Source: a virus (taxonomy: Duplodnaviria > Heunggongvirae > Uroviricota > Caudoviricetes). Taken from it: a stretch of DNA of 64,000 nucleotides. Location: the IMG/VR virus record IMGVR_UViG_2703718819_000007; one strand, 5' to 3'. This document shows positions 1-12,000 of the stretch, piece by piece. Positions within the stretch are counted from its first letter, which is position 1; each line of letters begins with the position of its first letter. The position numbers are program-made.

Positions 1-3000
1 GTGTTGGCGGACAACTGGTGGCAGCGTAAGGAGGAAATATGGGGTACGGCTTACTGGATATTGCGAATCAGTCACGGCGTGAGGCATTACAGGGAATAAG
101 TGACGCAGACCGACGACGTGAAGAAATTGAGGCTGCGAACAAACAGATGGCGGCGCAACAGAAAGCGCAGAACAAGCAGAATATCGGTACGGGCATTGGT
201 ACGGGGGCGGCTATTGGCGCATCCGTTGGTGGTCCTGTTGGTGCTGTTGCTGGAGCAGTAATTGGCGGCATTGCTGGTTCTTTGTTTTAAGGAGTGGTGA
301 ATGAGCGGATTTGCACAGGGGTTACTTGCCGGATTCAGCACGGTTGACCAGGCAATGACCCGTCGTAAGGAGCTTGGTCTGCGTGAAGCACAGCTTGCCC
401 GGCAACAGAAAAATAACGAGCGCGATTTTGAGTTTGCGCAGTCTCAGTTTGAACATAATAAAAACGTTGATCAGCGGAACTTTGATTACAGAGCCAAAGT
501 TGACGACCGTAATTATGCACTGAAGGAAAGGGAGTTTAACGCTAACCAGAATTACCGGAATGCGTCGCTGGGTATGGAGCAGCAGCGACTCCGGATGCAG
601 AAATACAACCAGCGACGGCTTGAGTATAACGATATGCTGGCGCGCGATCAGCCTGTGATGGCGGCGCTTGGAAAGGCTGTGGATGCTGGCGATCGGGATG
701 CAGCAATGCGTCTTTACGGCCAGTTGTCAGAGGGTAATCCGCTGAGGCTGATGGCGAATGATGGCTATGTAGCGAAAGCGGGTCAGGCCGTGAACAACCT
801 GCAAAAAATCTTTGATGACAAGCCAGACAGGGCTATCGCTTCACTTAATACGCCGGAGAATCTTGATGTCCTTTCCGGGGTGTTTGGCCCGGAACTGCAA
901 CAGCGTATTGGCATGCCCGATTCAACCGGGAAAAAGACGATAAAAGAGGCCAGGATTGGCAGTATAGTACCGGCACAGCAGGAAGGGTACATACTTATCG
1001 GCCTTGATCTCACATACAGTGATGGCTCTACAGCACATAAACCTGTAACAGAATACGGCAGTGCGCACCCTGATGATCAAACCGTGCTGGCGATACCCGT
1101 TGATAAGGCTATCGCTCAGGTCAGGGATCGCAGCAAATTTGCAGAGATATCGAAAAATTATGGTTATTTTATGCCGAAGCAGCAGGGACTTTCTCTGAAA
1201 GAGCTTCAGAAGGGGGCCAGCAACGTCGCGGCGGACGCGATCAAGAATGGCGGTAATGCACAGGCTGCGGTGGATGAATATTATGCTGCGACTGGTTCAC
1301 AACCGCATCAACAGAAAATTCAGCAACAAAAACTTCAGCAACAGGTTATCAACTGGGCGGGAGATGATCCTGATAAGCTGTCATTTGCCAGAAATGTAGC
1401 GGCCCGTCAGCCTGAAATGCTGGAGCCTCAGAATCAGAAATTGCTGGAGAACGGGTATGCGAATTTTCTCCGTATTCAAAAGGCCAGGGGGGAACAGGCC
1501 AGAGATGAAAGTGCTTCATCTGCATCTCAGTTTATCCGTGGACTGAAACAGAATTACGCCCAGTAATTCACGATATTCCATTAATACCATTTCCTGATGC
1601 CCGGCCATTGTGCCGGGTTTTTTTATGGAGTCTGTATGGCCTATTCAGAGGAACAGCGTCCTGAGGCGCAACTCGGTAACCAGAATCGTAACAGCCTGAA
1701 CATTCAGCAACCCGGCGAAACTGACAGCTATGAAGCATTTTTCTCTGATCCGAATCGCTGGAAGGATAACAGTACGTCGTTCAGCCTGGGCGATGTATTG
1801 CCAACAATGGGTAAAGGTTTCGCCCAGTCCGTCCGGGGAACAGGGGAAATGGCCCGTGGACTCGGTGATGCGATGATTCAGAGCCCGGTAAAAACAGGGG
1901 CGCGTATTTTAAATGAGTTCAGCCGTATGGGGCTGCCGGGTGTCGCAACTGTGCAGGATATTTTTGCCGGTGGCAGCAGGGGGGCTGATGAGGTCATCGA
2001 TACCCTGCCTGATGGCAAAAACGCGGTTACTGATACTGTCGGTAAAGGTCTGAAGGCAACCGGTAAGGCTGTCAGTGATGGTGCTGAAGCCACTGATGAA
2101 TGGCTGACCGGTAAGATGTCGCCGGGTGCAGTTCGTGCGCTGAATACGCCGATGACCGAAGGCTATGATGATTCTGCGGTCTGGGTGGCGAAGGGTGTAA
2201 ACCTGATTGGTGCGCTTGTACCTGATATGGTTGCTGGCGGTGTGGCTAAAAAGGTGGGTGATGTCACACTGCGAAAAATGCTGACCGCCGGGCTGGAGAA
2301 AAAATACATCGCGGCAGGGATGCAGCCGGAAAGAGCCACGGCACTGGCAGCAGAAGCTGTCGATAAAAAAATGCCGGATTTATTCCAGGCGGGCCTGATC
2401 ACCCATTCCACAGCCAGTGCACAGGGGCAGAGTGCAATGGCGGCAGCAGATGCTGTTCTTAATGCGGATTACTCTGAGCTGGCGCAGTCACCGAAATTTC
2501 AGCAGACGTTTTTGTCCATTGACGCCGACCCGCAGCACGCACAGCTTACTGATCGCCAGAAAATGGATCTGGCAAAAGAGCGTGTTGCCGATGAGGTGCG
2601 CGCGCAGCTGGCAACCGATCCTGAATTGCTGGCTGTGAATGCCATGGCGGCAAAACTGGGTGACGCACAACTGTTTAATCTGGTGACACGAGGCACAGCG
2701 AAGACCGTTAAAAGCGGCATTGTCAGAAATGCCACGGAACAGGGGGCGATTAATGCGGCGCAGGGCGGCTATTCACGCTATCAGGAAAACACGGCATTGC
2801 GTGAGACCGCCGGAATGGATGTGTCACCGTGGGAGGGCGTGGCTGACGCAACGATCGAAGGTGCAGCCTTTGGTGCTGCGATGGGGGCTCCATCCGGTGC
2901 GGTTGCCGGATATCGTGGCAGACGTCAGGCCGCAGAAGAAGCAGCCATGCGTGATGCTGAAACCGTGCAGCAGGACGACGCAGCCCCGCAACCAGAATCT

Positions 3001-9000: not shown

Positions 9001-12000
9001 GCGGGTTATCTGCTTGGCTCGCTTAACCGCAGCGTGGCGGGTGAGGATGATGACGGGGTTAACTGGTATGACAAAGTACCGTCTCATGTGAAAGAGCGTA
9101 ACCTCGTCATTATGAAATCGGTGTTCGGGGGCAAGGCCGGAGAGTACTGGAGTATTCCTCTGCCTTACGGGTACAACGTTTTCTTCCTGCTTGGTCACAC
9201 AGCCGAAGGGGTGGCAGCGGGCGACCTGACCGCTTCACGTGCTGCCGGTAATGTTGTTGGTGGTGTGCTTGGGGCATTCAGTCCTGTGGGCAGTGAAACG
9301 TCGGAAACACTGTCCGGGGCATTGCTGAAAAATGCAGCGCCGACCATTCTGCGTCCGTTTGCGAACCTTGCCATGAATGAAAACTTCATGGGGGCGCAGA
9401 TTTACCAGGAGAACATGCCGTTTGGTACACCAAAACCTGACAGCCAGCTGGGAAGACGTTCAACGCCAGAAGCGTACAAGGCGTTTGCATCCTGGCTGAA
9501 TGCGTTCTCAGGTGGCAGCCAGTACCGTCCCGGCGCGGTGGATATCACACCGGAATCGCTGAAATTCTGGATTGACTATATCTCCGGAGGGACAGGGCGC
9601 TTCATTTCCAAAACCACGGATGCGGCGGTGAAATCGCTGAATGGTATTGATATACCGGAACAGCAGGTGCCCTTCCTGGGGAAAATTTCGGGGGAGGTGA
9701 TGCCGTATGCAGACCAGCAGAAGATGTACGACCGGATGACAGAGATTGCGCAGTATCACGCAGAGCTGAAGAGTCTGACCGGTGCAGAAAGAACGGCGTT
9801 CATTGACGAGAACAACGGAAAATTGTCGATGAACGGGCTTATGCAGGATACCCGGAAGAGACTGAAGGATTTGCGTAAACAGCGTGATGCCATTTATGCC
9901 GACAGTTCTCTCAGTCTGGCGCAGCAGGCGGCGATAGTGAAATCGGTAGAGCGGGATATGAAGGTTGCCGTGGATCGCTTTAACCGCGAGTACAACAAAA
10001 AAGTGGGAGTGGATTAACAGAAATGGCCCCGTACGGAAGTGCGGGGCTGATTAAGGAATAAACACACATTAACCTGTAATAACCGGAGCTATTAACATAT
10101 AGTCAGAAAGAGTATTTCATGTGAGACAGAGAGCCGATTTATGTTTAATGAAGAAAAAGTTGCGCAAATGGCAGCGTATTTGCTGAAAAAGCATGGCGGA
10201 TCTATGCGTTTCATTAAGCTGATGAAGCTGATGTATCTCTCTGACCGCAAAGCAATGGAGTCTTTAACCGGGAAGGGGAGAGGTTTGAATGCTCCCCCAC
10301 AATTCCCCGGCATCAAATCTCCATGCAGGTGAACTATTTTACCCCCAGCGGCAAATCGCAAAAACAATCAGTGCGATCGAAATGGCAGCCACTACAATTG
10401 CAAATGCTTCAGGCTAGGTCATTGGCTTACCTCCTTCGGCGGTTCTGGTAGCGGCATCCAGTGGGTTACTTCTTTGAGATGCAGGTCTTCGCCATCACCG
10501 TCATCCCAAGTGGGATTGCCATCATTAAACCAGTCGCCATATACGCCGACCTGAGTGTTGGGGATGCTTGGTGGGTAGTTGTTTTTAAAGTCAGCTGCTA
10601 ACACATAGTATTGTCGCTCTCCCATTTCTGGCATTCGATCACTACAGCTTATCCAACCATCCGGAGTTACCGGAACTGGCGGAACGGCTGTTTGCTCTCG
10701 AACGTCATTAGTCGCTATCGGTTCTGCTGCCAACTGACTGGCATATTTGTTAATGGTAACGATAAGCTCTTGCTCAGCCTCATCCAGACAATCACCGATA
10801 CCTCGCCTGTCACCGTCAAAATCATCGAAATCGGCACGAATCTTGGCAACCTTCTGGATTGCGGACAACACCTCACTAGGAATTACCGGATAGTTGGTTG
10901 ACGTTTCCGCGATTTCCCGAAAATTATTGGTTGACGAATTCTTGTTTTCCCGAAAGTTTCCGGACTGAAGCATGGCGGCGCGGCAGGCATTCCAGCCTCT
11001 TACCTCTGCAATAGCGGCAACCGCATCAACCGCGTACATGCTAAGAGGATTAGGCATTGGTTTTTCTTCCGGTACTACTGGTGCTGGAGGGGCGGCGTAA
11101 ATGCCCTCTATCACTAAATGTTTGCGCTCAAAATCATCTGGCTCTCGATGATATACGTAACTCCAATCACCAAGGTTATCATTGCGCCTGCAACGGAAAC
11201 CTATCGGCTCGGCTTCCAGCGCTGCCAGAGCAATTCGTGCCAGTTCTTCCGCTTCTTCTGCTGGCAGTACAACGTTGCTACCAGGTCCGTATGTTTCGCG
11301 CCACTGCTTGATTGTCAGTAGTCGCTCTTTGGTAATAGTGATCATGCCGCGTTTCCTTCTTTCTTATTAACAATTACACCGTCATATATTTCATTAAGGT
11401 GCCCTCTCAACTCCATGCGCCTTAATGCAGATAACATGTAATCGCATTCAACCTGCTTATTCCCAATAAAAGGTTTATCTTCAGGGTTACCCCAACAGCA
11501 ATTCCCCTTGGGCCATCCATGTACTTTCCGTACTCTTCCGTTAACAACGTGAAGTAATCCCCAGCCAGGTGGTAAATCCTCAATTGAAATAATTCCCGGC
11601 TCACTAATAAAGAATCGCCAGTCGCCCATTCCAAGAGACGGATTTTTACGAAAACGCTTTTTTCTATCTGCCAACAAGTCAGCACGAGAACATTTCGCCT
11701 CTATCAGGCATGATGCTGAATTTCTGAATCCCATAGCATCTGGCTGTTCTCCGGTACTGGTTACAGCTATAAAGCGGTCATGAAAACAAACCTTGAACCC
11801 GTTGCGCTTAAGGAACTTGTACGCAATCTGACAGAGTTCGCGGTGTGTTAACGCCATATCACTCTCCTTTGATGCGAATGCCAGCAAGCCAGTTTCTTAT
11901 GCCGATATATTCAGCGTTCCGGAAACCGCTTTTTACATATATAAATGGCAAGCGAAGATTGTGACCATTGACTGCCAGGTAGTCTTTACAACCCTGTTCG

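What the first reader, a model, noticed from the sequence alone, without database searches (positions are those of the whole stretch)
39..10017. Operon of glycine-zipper protein, coiled-coil protein and a ~2,790-aa giant protein
Three co-oriented genes of 83, 421 and ~2,793 codons grow in size along the operon, much like podophage ejection/internal-core protein sets (T7 gp14-15-16, P22 gp7-20-16). The third is far larger than those and has no Walker A motif that I can find. It may be an injected polyvalent effector or anti-defence protein. The operon lies next to antirepressor and Ea22-like accessory genes.
Basis: partly seen in the sequence, partly recalled or inferred. Interest (0 to 1): 0.75.

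Follow-up and report, generated by a model that had tools for sequence, protein, structure and literature searches.

The report
Stx phage internal giant polyvalent protein
These three genes are the end of the late operon of a Shiga-toxin (933W/phi24B-type) prophage and encode proteins carried inside the phage head, including a 308-kDa multi-enzyme "polyvalent" protein that is probably shot into the cell with the DNA; a 2026 preprint already reports this for a 96%-identical protein, so the finding is correct but not new.

Summary
Genes of 83, 421 and 2,793 codons lie co-oriented at 39-290, 301-1566 and 1636-10017. The region is 99.9% identical to Shigella phage 75/02 Stx and at least 90% identical in 186 Stx-phage records.

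The giant protein is a phage-type polyvalent protein. In order it has:
- an N-terminal region with a glycine zipper
- a low-complexity linker
- LPD5
- a zincin domain (HEWFH..D) ending in LPD1
- a second zincin domain (HEXXXH)
- a MuF_C/PBECR RNase-like domain
- a 915-aa C-terminal module containing LPD38

That module always ends the protein. It occurs in more than 8,600 protein clusters with swappable upstream cargo, and it has no solved structural homologue.

In phi24B all three proteins were detected in purified virions. They are 100%, 94% and 96% identical to the window's. The 421-aa and giant proteins were estimated at about 30 and 19 copies per virion, and neither is in the cryo-EM map. 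The trio plus two upstream genes, which the window edge cuts off, is conserved in Vibrio podophages. Positional equivalents in Burkholderia phage JC1 are virion proteins. An LPD38 protein of coliphage PTXU04 is needed for infection.

The likeness to T7 and P22 ejection proteins is an analogy, not homology. Injection itself is untested. Novelty: already known.

The parts
1..29 (+). 3' end of the preceding cassette gene (75/02 Stx gp65, phi24B 'gp50', 148-161 aa), cut by the window edge
   Evidence: The stop TAA at 27-29 lies just before the RBS of the 83-aa gene. RefSeq annotates the gene in phage 75/02 Stx. The phi24B orthologue is found in virions by MS at about 36-40 estimated copies. It is homologous to Vibrio phage NVP1205O_17.
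39..290 (+). 83-aa protein: charged N-terminal half, glycine-zipper hydrophobic C-terminal half (residues 50-83). RefSeq's name 'bacteriocin' is not supported.
   Evidence: Pfam Gly-zipper_YMGG scores 25.7 bits and Bacteriocin_IIc 19.7 bits, both below their cut-offs. It matches phrog_594. It is 44% identical to the 77-aa protein at the same position in Vibrio phage 1.205.O. It is 100% identical to the phi24B ORF detected in virions by 3 peptides and 16 spectra.
301..1566 (+). 421-aa (47 kDa) protein: N-terminal GFAQGLLAGF motif, helix modelled over residues 13-129, small beta domain, helical C-terminus
   Evidence: No Pfam or PDB match. It matches phrog_601, which also holds the Vibrio 442-aa protein. 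The AF2 model has pLDDT 66.6 and no significant fold match. The phi24B orthologue gp48 (93.6% identical) has 92% MS coverage, about 30 estimated copies per virion, and no location assigned in the structure.
1599..1625 (+). Terminator-like GC hairpin plus T-run between the 421-aa gene and the giant gene
   Evidence: The scan reports a 7-bp stem with 6 GC pairs followed by seven T. Sequence read directly. Function not tested.
1636..10017 (+). Giant gene, 2,793 aa, 307.9 kDa: phage-type polyvalent protein
   Evidence: Pfam finds LPD5, LPD1, MuF_C and LPD38. It matches phrog_616 full length. The phi24B orthologue gp47 (96.1% identical) has 93.6% MS coverage and about 19 estimated copies per virion.
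2023..2955 (+). Conserved N-terminal region (aa 130-440) with a moderately hydrophobic segment (181-199) and a glycine zipper (405-430)
   Evidence: 30% identical to aa 95-372 of the Vibrio giant. It matches phrog_37568. Hydropathy and zipper scan. A weak Gly-zipper Pfam hit. Found in 9 of 150 relatives.
2956..4785 (+). Low-complexity acidic, Gln/Pro/Arg-rich linker (aa 441-1050)
   Evidence: Composition per 200-aa block. No family match.
4786..5235 (+). LPD5 domain (aa 1051-1200), listed as 'potentially enzymatic' by Iyer et al. 2017
   Evidence: Pfam PF18799, E 1.2e-44. Invariant Arg and Gly residues in 15 sequences. Paper statement.
5236..5955 (+). Zincin metallopeptidase domain 1 (aa 1201-1440): H1263 ... 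H1284-E-W-F-H1288-S-L-D1291. Its C-terminal part is Pfam LPD1.
   Evidence: All these residues are 100% conserved in 32 sequences. NCBIfam CLCA_X scores 150 bits over 1182-1437, below its cut-off. LPD1 matches at E 1.1e-23. The residue pattern fits the phage-type MPTase variant described in PMC5512222.
6043..6795 (+). Zincin metallopeptidase domain 2 (aa 1470-1720), HEXXXH type: H1551, E1552, H1556 and E1607
   Evidence: These residues are 96-100% conserved in 45 sequences. The domain lies directly upstream of the C-terminal module in 44 of 150 relatives. The HEXXXH variant is described in PMC5512222. It is shared with the Vibrio giant.
6883..7146 (+). MuF_C / PBECR domain (aa 1750-1837), a BECR-fold RNase-like domain
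   Evidence: Pfam PF18819, E 1.6e-17. H1752, S1775, H1801 and S1816 are invariant in 7 sequences. The definition as a predicted RNase, not a peptidase, is in PMC5512222.
7270..10014 (+). Conserved C-terminal module (aa 1879-2793), the constant 'chassis' of the family
9061..9678 (+). LPD38 domain (aa 2476-2681) within the C-terminal module. Glycine-rich, moderately hydrophobic helices lie at 2445-2467 (just upstream of the domain) and at 2515-2551 (inside it).
   Evidence: Pfam PF18857, E 3.6e-48. Hydropathy scan. [quoted passage not shown]

Best explanation
The three genes are the last three of a five-gene cassette that closes the late (virion) operon of a short-tailed Shiga-toxin prophage of the 933W/phi24B/75-02 type. 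Their products are packed inside the capsid rather than built into the shell or tail.

Inferred mechanism:
1. When the needle is released, these internal proteins leave through the tail ahead of or with the DNA.
2. The small glycine-zipper protein, the helical 421-aa protein and the conserved C-terminal 915-aa module of the giant provide the core DNA-delivery function, that is, exit from the head and crossing of the envelope.
3. The upstream part of the giant is cargo delivered into the cell: LPD5, two zincin metallopeptidase domains and a PBECR RNase-like domain.
4. The peptidase domains most likely cut the 308-kDa polyprotein into working pieces or attack host proteins. The RNase-like domain would act on host or defence RNAs.

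What is shown and what is inferred:
- Shown here: gene structure, domain content, conservation, synteny, and the constant-module/variable-cargo pattern.
- Shown by others: presence in virions, absence from the virion model, and the need for an LPD38 protein in phage PTXU04.
- Inferred: ejection, channel formation, self-processing and the targets of the enzymes.
For: - Identity: 99.9% identical to Shigella phage 75/02 Stx, with 186 Stx-phage records at 90% or more.
- Domains: LPD5, LPD1, MuF_C and LPD38. Two zincin motifs have fully conserved catalytic residues and fit the MPTase variants of PMC5512222.
- Virion packaging: phi24B gp47 has 93.6% coverage and about 19 estimated copies; gp48 has about 30 copies; the 86-aa ORF gave 3 peptides; gp50 and gp51 were also found. 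None of them is among the proteins modelled in the map. These proteins are 96.1%, 93.6% and 100% identical to the window's.
- Published proposal: the phi24B authors themselves propose gp47 as an encapsidated ejection protein.
- Synteny: the five-gene cassette is conserved in Vibrio phage 1.205.O.
- Burkholderia relatives: the LPD38 giant of BcepMigl ends the virion module. In JC1 the giant and the two proteins before it are virion proteins by MS.
- Constant module, variable cargo: the C-terminal module is at the C-terminus in 150 of 150 relatives. Cargo among 15 relatives includes ART, InPase, helicases, ddrB-ParB, RadC, PBECR and SLT domains.
- Envelope link: the BcepMigl giant starts with an SLT lytic transglycosylase domain.
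- Core role: knock-down of the LPD38-only giant of coliphage PTXU04 strongly lowers plating. Its near relative Pondi_00077 has LPD38 and is hit by the window's module.
Against: - No experiment shows that any of these proteins leaves the capsid or enters the cell.
- There is no sequence or fold similarity to any solved ejection protein or any other solved structure.
- The window's giant has no detectable peptidoglycan hydrolase.
- The giant has no strongly hydrophobic transmembrane segment. The best 19-residue hydropathy window scores 1.38.
- The 83-aa protein gave few spectra, and the phi24B authors filed it as probable contamination.
- The PTXU04 phenotype could reflect a role in head assembly rather than in ejection.
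- The 421-aa protein is not detectably homologous to the Burkholderia protein in the same position.
- Copy numbers come from spectral counts and are rough.
Confidence: 0.62

Rival explanations
1. The giant is purely an injected anti-defence or host-takeover effector, like the P1 Dar proteins or T4 Alt. It is dispensable for DNA entry. The C-terminal module is only a head-targeting or packaging tag, and the two small proteins are chaperones or scaffolds for its incorporation.
For: - The domain repertoire of relatives is the classic counter-defence set: ART, MTase, helicase, ParB-like nuclease, PBECR.
- Iyer et al. interpret this class in that way.
- Phage annotators call the relatives 'DarB-like antirestriction'.
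- In phage N4 the region containing the peptidase domain is needed for encapsidation of the virion RNA polymerase.
Against: - The LPD38-only giant of PTXU04 has no recognisable effector domain, yet it is needed for efficient plating in a CRISPRi-ART screen in E. coli.
- Some family members appear to be close to module-only, although gene calls on short contigs may be incomplete.
- About 900 residues with many invariant polar residues is a lot for a tag.
Confidence: 0.25
2. The proteins are internal scaffold or DNA-organising components of the large T=9 head, needed for assembly or genome packing. They stay in the capsid after ejection.
For: - They are abundant, with tens of copies each and roughly 8 MDa in total by my arithmetic from the copy estimates.
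- They are found in virions but not located in the structure.
- The PTXU04 knock-down phenotype is equally compatible with an assembly defect.
Against: - Enzymatic domains with intact catalytic residues (two zincins and a PBECR) have no obvious role in a scaffold.
- Cargo domains are swapped freely between relatives.
- An SLT cell-wall hydrolase domain in the BcepMigl homologue points to action on the host envelope.
- A separate scaffold-position protein exists upstream between the portal and the capsid gene.
Confidence: 0.08
3. The genes are not virion genes at all. The 83-aa gene is a bacteriocin and the giant is a secreted polymorphic toxin or a tail-fibre or tape-measure-like structural protein.
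For: - RefSeq names the 83-aa product 'bacteriocin'.
- There is a weak Pfam Bacteriocin_IIc hit.
- The phi24B GenBank note predicts a leader peptide on the giant.
Against: - The bacteriocin hit is below threshold (19.7 against 27.1 bits) and is explained by the glycine zipper.
- The predicted 'leader' belongs to the upstream extension that starts at an ATG beside a hairpin, not at the RBS-preceded start.
- There is no tape-measure or fibre family match to the giant.
- The phi24B tail is fully accounted for by other proteins.
- MS places the proteins in purified virions.
Confidence: 0.03

Closest known systems
phi24B gp47, gp48 and the 86-aa ORF (Stx2 phage vB_EcoP_24B; bioRxiv 10.64898/2026.04.10.717836)
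   Same: These are orthologues, 96.1%, 93.6% and 100% identical, in the same gene order. gp47 is reported there as an LPD5/LPD1/LPD38/MuF-C polyvalent protein present in virions, absent from the map, and proposed to be an ejection protein.
   Different: The preprint calls MuF-C a metallopeptidase that degrades peptidoglycan. Its defining paper describes MuF-C as a BECR-fold RNase-like domain. The metallopeptidase motifs lie elsewhere, at residues 1284 and 1551. The preprint also files the 86-aa protein as contamination, whereas its conserved position argues that it belongs to the set.
Phage-type polyvalent proteins (Iyer, Burroughs, Anand, de Souza, Aravind 2017, PMC5512222)
   Same: A very large protein in the late-gene region. 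It combines LPD domains, zincin MPTase domains and a PBECR domain. LPD38 is restricted to phage-type members.
   Different: That paper does not name 933W or Stx phages in its main text. It treats LPD38 as one unexplained domain. Here LPD38 is part of a roughly 915-aa module that is always C-terminal.
'DarB-like antirestriction' giants of Bcep22-like Burkholderia and Ralstonia podophages (JC1 gp69, BcepMigl gp69)
   Same: They share the C-terminal module (27% identity over 85% of it) including LPD38. They occupy the last position in the virion module and follow a mid-size virion protein. They are in virions by MS. The JC1 paper reports that portal, capsid and head-closure proteins are homologous to 933W.
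   Different: Their cargo is an SLT lytic transglycosylase, an Eco57I-type methylase, a helicase and PBECR1. None of these is in the window's protein. The window's protein has no Walker A motif. The preceding proteins are not detectably homologous.
T7 gp14-gp15-gp16 and P22 gp7-gp20-gp16 ejection proteins
   Same: Three consecutive genes of increasing size lie downstream of the tail genes of a podophage, and their products are encapsidated and not part of shell or tail. From my own knowledge, T7 gp16 carries an N-terminal lytic transglycosylase, as the BcepMigl giant does.
   Different: No sequence or fold similarity to any solved structure was found. The giant is about twice the size of T7 gp16 and carries extra enzymes. 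The cassette has five genes.
PTXU04 gp25 (Xuquatrovirus; CRISPRi-ART study PMC11879866)
   Same: A giant protein of an E. coli podophage carrying LPD38 near its C-terminus. The orthologue Pondi_00077 has LPD38 at 1899-2076 of 2,192 aa.
   Different: Only a distant match (26.6% identity over part of the module). No other annotated domains. It is the only member with a loss-of-function phenotype.

Membership tests
Phage-type polyvalent protein (Iyer et al. 2017) | Single large polypeptide combining several distinct effector or LPD domains | tested here: met
   Pfam finds LPD5, LPD1, MuF_C and LPD38, all well above their gathering scores.
Phage-type polyvalent protein (Iyer et al. 2017) | Zincin-like MPTase domain: HEXXH or HEXXXH plus a downstream Glu, with clade-specific extra residues | tested here: met
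   H1263/H1284/E1285/H1288/D1291 are 100% conserved in 32 sequences. H1551/E1552/H1556/E1607 are 96-100% conserved in 45 sequences. Both patterns match variants described in the paper. No Pfam peptidase family matched these regions significantly; the best was Peptidase_M76 at E 0.16.
Phage-type polyvalent protein (Iyer et al. 2017) | Encoded among late or virion genes of a phage | tested here: met
   It is the last gene of the virion module in phage 75/02 Stx, phi24B and Vibrio 1.205.O.
Phage-type polyvalent protein (Iyer et al. 2017) | Packaged in the virion and delivered into the host with the DNA | not testable with these tools
   Packaging is shown by MS for the 96%-identical phi24B protein. 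Delivery has not been shown anywhere.
T7-type or P22-type ejection (internal core) proteins | Sequence or fold homology to gp14/15/16 or gp7/20/16 | tested here: not met
T7-type or P22-type ejection (internal core) proteins | Encapsidated, not part of shell or tail, encoded after the tail genes | tested here: met
   Gene order. Literature MS and the list of modelled proteins.
T7-type or P22-type ejection (internal core) proteins | Peptidoglycan-cleaving domain in the largest member (T7 gp16) | tested here: not met
   No SLT or lysozyme hit in the window's giant. An SLT domain is present in the BcepMigl homologue.
T7-type or P22-type ejection (internal core) proteins | Forms a trans-envelope channel during infection | not testable with these tools
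   Needs cryo-ET or biochemistry.
P1 DarB antirestriction protein | N6-adenine methyltransferase and helicase domains | tested here: not met
   No methylase or helicase family hit and no Walker A motif. The only link is LPD38, shared with 'DarB-like' giants.
Class II bacteriocin (RefSeq name of the 83-aa product) | Match to the family model | tested here: not met
   Bacteriocin_IIc scores 19.7 bits against a cut-off of 27.1. The match covers the glycine-zipper segment (residues 47-80). The gene sits in a virion cassette conserved in Vibrio phages.
Tape measure or tail fibre protein | Family match across the length, or a place in the tail structure | tested here: not met
   No such Pfam or PHROG hit for the giant. 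The phi24B tail is built from other proteins.

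The most novel reading that the evidence does not exclude
The five-gene cassette may be a distinct, structurally unsolved type of podophage genome-delivery apparatus, unrelated to the T7 and P22 types. Its core would be the 915-aa LPD38-bearing C-terminal module, which also serves as a universal carrier onto which phages bolt interchangeable effector cargo. On this reading the delivery machine and the effector-injection system are one protein, present in thousands of phage lineages.
Probability: 0.3. Interest if true: 0.65.

Novelty: already known. Interest (0 to 1): 0.33.

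Why it matters
Stx phages spread Shiga-toxin genes among E. coli and Shigella, and how these short-tailed phages get their DNA across the envelope is not known. The giant protein takes up about 14% of the phage genome. By the published estimates several megadaltons of it travel in each particle. It carries intact peptidase and RNase-like active sites that may act in a newly infected cell.

The practical value of this check is limited. It confirms a correct reading, and it ties the window to existing proteomic, genetic and comparative data. It also adds three points that could guide experiments:
- which domains are the metallopeptidases
- that the constant unit is a 915-aa C-terminal module
- that the small glycine-zipper protein probably belongs to the set

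The biology itself has already been proposed in print.

Tried and rejected
1. Full-length searches of the giant and the 421-aa protein in the 5.8-billion-protein index returned only near-identical E. coli copies. They said nothing about distant relatives. The exhaustive representative search and tblastn against phages did that job.
2. Sequence searches of PDB with the giant, its central 700 aa and the 421-aa protein found nothing below E 0.1.
3. The AF2 model of the 421-aa protein came from a shallow alignment (13 sequences at 76-95% identity) and reached only pLDDT 66.6. Its Foldseek result is uninformative.
5. BLASTP and hhalign of the 421-aa family against BcepMigl gp68 found no homology beyond a 12-residue N-terminal motif.
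6. The PADLOC scan gave no meaningful defence-system match.
7. I rejected the ATG at 1597 as the start. It lies beside the hairpin and lacks an RBS.
8. I looked for the giant's N-terminal peptide in the phi24B supplement to confirm the start. It is absent from the stored text, but that text is truncated, so the result is inconclusive.
9. I first read the preprint as dismissing gp48 as a 'transcription factor' contaminant. Its abundance sheet in fact lists gp48 as a structural candidate of unknown location, and only the 86-aa protein is filed as contamination.

Full report
**1. The observation**

The ORF table shows three co-oriented open reading frames at 39-290 (83 aa), 301-1566 (421 aa) and 1597-10017. 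The third is 2,806 codons from its first ATG.

- The true start of the third gene is ATG 1636. It is preceded by GGAG at the right spacing. The ATG at 1597 lies beside a GC-rich hairpin followed by seven T, at 1599-1618.
- Starting at 1636 gives 2,793 aa (307.9 kDa).
- All three genes have strong Shine-Dalgarno sites.
- There is no Walker A motif.
- Bases 1-29 are the end of a further upstream gene. The operon is therefore cut by the window edge.

**2. Where it comes from**

Window 1-10100 is 99.9% identical to Shigella phage 75/02 Stx (Sepvirinae). It is at least 90% identical in 186 phage records, including 933W, VT2-Sakai and many Stx1/Stx2 phages.

The window is chromosomal.
- After them come ynfF, ynfE and rspA.
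- A second, long-tailed lambdoid prophage follows from about 32 kb.

**3. The three proteins**

The 83-aa protein has a charged N-terminal half and a glycine-zipper C-terminal half.
- Its Pfam matches to Gly-zipper_YMGG and Bacteriocin_IIc are both below threshold.
- RefSeq's name 'bacteriocin' is therefore not justified.

The 421-aa protein has no Pfam, NCBIfam or PDB match.
- A low-confidence model (pLDDT 66.6) shows a helix over residues 13-129, a small beta domain and a helical C-terminus.
- The model has no fold match.

The giant has four Pfam domains: LPD5 (1051-1200), LPD1 (1361-1440), MuF_C (1750-1837) and LPD38 (2476-2681). All four were defined in the polyvalent-protein study of Iyer et al. 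2017.

**4. Finer anatomy of the giant**

I aligned segments of the giant with relatives found by an exhaustive HMMER search.
- Residues 1201-1440 form a zincin domain. H1263, H1284-E-W-F-H1288 and D1291 are invariant in 32 sequences. This is the phage-type MPTase variant described by Iyer et al.: a His at the end of strand 2 and an Asp three residues after HEXXH. LPD1 is its C-terminal part. NCBIfam's CLCA_X model also covers it, below its cut-off.
- Residues 1470-1720 form a second zincin domain of the HEXXXH type. H1551, E1552, H1556 and E1607 are 96-100% conserved in 45 sequences. This variant is also described in that paper.
- MuF_C is a PBECR domain, a BECR-fold predicted RNase. H1752, S1775, H1801 and S1816 are invariant in the 7 sequences available, which is compatible with an active site.
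- The N-terminal third holds a conserved region (130-440) with a glycine zipper at 405-430. A low-complexity linker follows it.

**5. The C-terminal module**

Residues 1879-2793 behave as one unit.
- An exhaustive search of 1.84 billion cluster representatives found 8,619 clusters at E<1e-3 and 4,792 at E<1e-30.
- In all 150 best hits the match ends a median of 3 residues from the C-terminus, in proteins of 555-5,181 aa.
- The upstream parts differ. Among 15 diverse relatives LPD38 is in all 15. The cargo includes ART-PolyVal, InPase, Sbno-like and SNF2 helicases, ddrB-ParB, RadC, PBECR3/5, Eco57I methylase and SLT domains.
- The HEXXXH peptidase directly precedes the module in 44 of 150 relatives.
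- The module is modelled with good confidence (pLDDT 80, pTM 0.76). It is mostly helical with one beta domain.
- It has many invariant polar residues, for example K2388-N-x-T-x-N-F-N-R-x-G-E2399.
- It has glycine-rich, moderately hydrophobic helices at 2445-2467 and 2515-2551.

**6. Evidence that the proteins are inside the virion**

A preprint of April 2026 on phi24B combines cryo-EM with proteomics. The phi24B proteins are 100%, 93.6% and 96.1% identical to the window's three.
- In its supplementary tables gp47, the giant, has 422 peptides and 93.6% coverage, so the whole polypeptide is in the particles.
- gp48, the 421-aa protein, has 64 peptides and 92% coverage.
- The 86-aa ORF has 3 peptides.
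- The two upstream genes, gp51 and gp50, are also found.
- The authors' own estimates are about 19 copies of gp47, 30 of gp48, 22 of gp51 and 36-40 of gp50 per virion. All four are marked 'ND' in the structure.
- Atomic models were built only for gp57, gp61, gp62, gp64, gp67, gp69, gp72 and gp84, and the needle gp56 was traced separately.
- The N-terminal peptide of gp48 (residues 2-21) is present, so that end is not processed.
- The authors propose gp47 as an encapsidated ejection protein.

They also call MuF-C a peptidoglycan-degrading metallopeptidase. The defining paper does not support that.

**7. Comparative evidence**

- In Vibrio phage 1.205.O the virion module ends with homologues of all five genes in the same order. 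The proteins are 201, 117, 77, 442 and 3,130 aa long.
- The Vibrio giant shares the N-terminal region, the HEXXXH domain and the C-terminal module (41% identity) with the window's giant. Its middle is different.
- The Burkholderia phage BcepMigl giant (4,658 aa) shares the module and ends the virion module. It begins with an SLT lytic transglycosylase domain.
- In the related phage JC1 the giant and the 510-aa and 196-aa proteins just before it are virion proteins by MS. The JC1 paper reports that its portal, capsid and head-closure proteins are homologous to those of 933W.
- The 421-aa protein is not detectably homologous to BcepMigl gp68.
- The proteins that precede each giant do share a glycine-rich N-terminal motif.

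**8. Functional evidence from a relative**

In coliphage PTXU04, a 2,198-aa protein whose only annotation is LPD38 is needed for efficient infection when knocked down with dCas13d.
- Its orthologue in phage Pondi (same genus) has LPD38 near the C-terminus and is hit by the window's module.
- This argues that the module has a core role and is not only an accessory anti-defence function.

**9. Interpretation**

The best-supported reading is a cassette of internal head proteins that leave with the DNA.
- The constant C-terminal module, probably with the 421-aa and glycine-zipper proteins, does the delivery work.
- The upstream enzymes of the giant are delivered cargo.
- The two zincin domains are the likely processing enzymes.

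Packaging is shown by others. Ejection, channel formation and processing are inferred. The main rival is that the module is only a packaging tag and the giant only an effector. A scaffold role and a non-virion role are less likely.

**10. Comparison with known systems, and novelty**

This is the same protein as phi24B gp47 and a member of the phage-type polyvalent proteins.
- It works like the T7 gp14-16 and P22 gp7-20-16 sets in position and location. It fails the homology test for those families.
- It is not a DarB: it has no methylase, helicase or Walker A.
- RefSeq already names it an LPD5/LPD38 protein.

The finding is therefore correct and already known. What this check adds is modest:
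- the placing of the two peptidase domains
- the delimitation of the 915-aa constant module and its scale
- the five-gene synteny
- the argument that the 83-aa protein is a genuine member of the set

Noticed in passing
window 1599-1625: A strong terminator-like hairpin (7-bp stem with 6 GC pairs, followed by seven T) sits in the 69-nt gap between the 421-aa gene and the giant gene, just before the giant's ribosome-binding site. It could lower the giant's expression relative to the upstream genes unless late antitermination reads through it.
   Followed up: partly
window 301-339; L003 13590-13650; L002 3060-3125; L004 3176-3235: The protein encoded just upstream of each giant starts with a similar glycine/small-residue motif: MSGFAQGLLAGFS, MANGLGGLASGLLAGARLG, MANYGIGIGAFAQGLMQGVQLG and MSIGEALASMFAGAAGEAAG. 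The Burkholderia and Stx-phage proteins are otherwise not detectably similar. It may be a shared targeting or membrane motif.
   Followed up: partly
window 15000-32000: Chromosomal genes (ynfF/ynfE DMSO/selenate reductase subunits, rspA and others) follow the prophage end at about 14.6-15 kb. The Stx prophage therefore sits next to the ynf locus.
   Followed up: partly
window 32000-64000: A second prophage of the long-tailed lambdoid type. ORFs include a likely integrase (32018-33313), a likely large terminase (51720-53822), a likely portal (53959-55539) and a 1,031-aa likely tape measure (60658-63753). These roles are judged from ORF sizes and order only.
   Followed up: no
window 7036-7635 (giant aa 1801-2000): This block is only 86% identical to phi24B gp47, against 94-100% elsewhere in the protein. 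It spans the end of the MuF_C/PBECR domain and the junction with the C-terminal module, and may be a local recombination or diversification spot.
   Followed up: no
window 301-1566 compared with 1636-10017: Across E. coli prophages the 421-aa protein varies much more (76-95% identity) than the giant (95-98%) in the listed hits.
   Followed up: no
L005 (phi24B) 6192-6515, 8667-9047 and 9398-9769, minus strand: The phi24B GenBank record annotates three small antisense ORFs inside the giant gene. It also notes a 'leader peptide' on the giant and a 'transcription initiation factor' likeness for the 421-aa protein. These look like annotation artefacts. The last one probably explains the 'Transcription factor?' label in the preprint's table.
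   Followed up: partly
L001 15274-16379 (phage 75/02 Stx gp64, gp65), upstream of the window start: Two further genes of the cassette (218 and 148 aa) are conserved in Vibrio phage 1.205.O. Their phi24B orthologues are abundant in virions but have no assigned place in the structure. They lie outside the window.
   Followed up: yes
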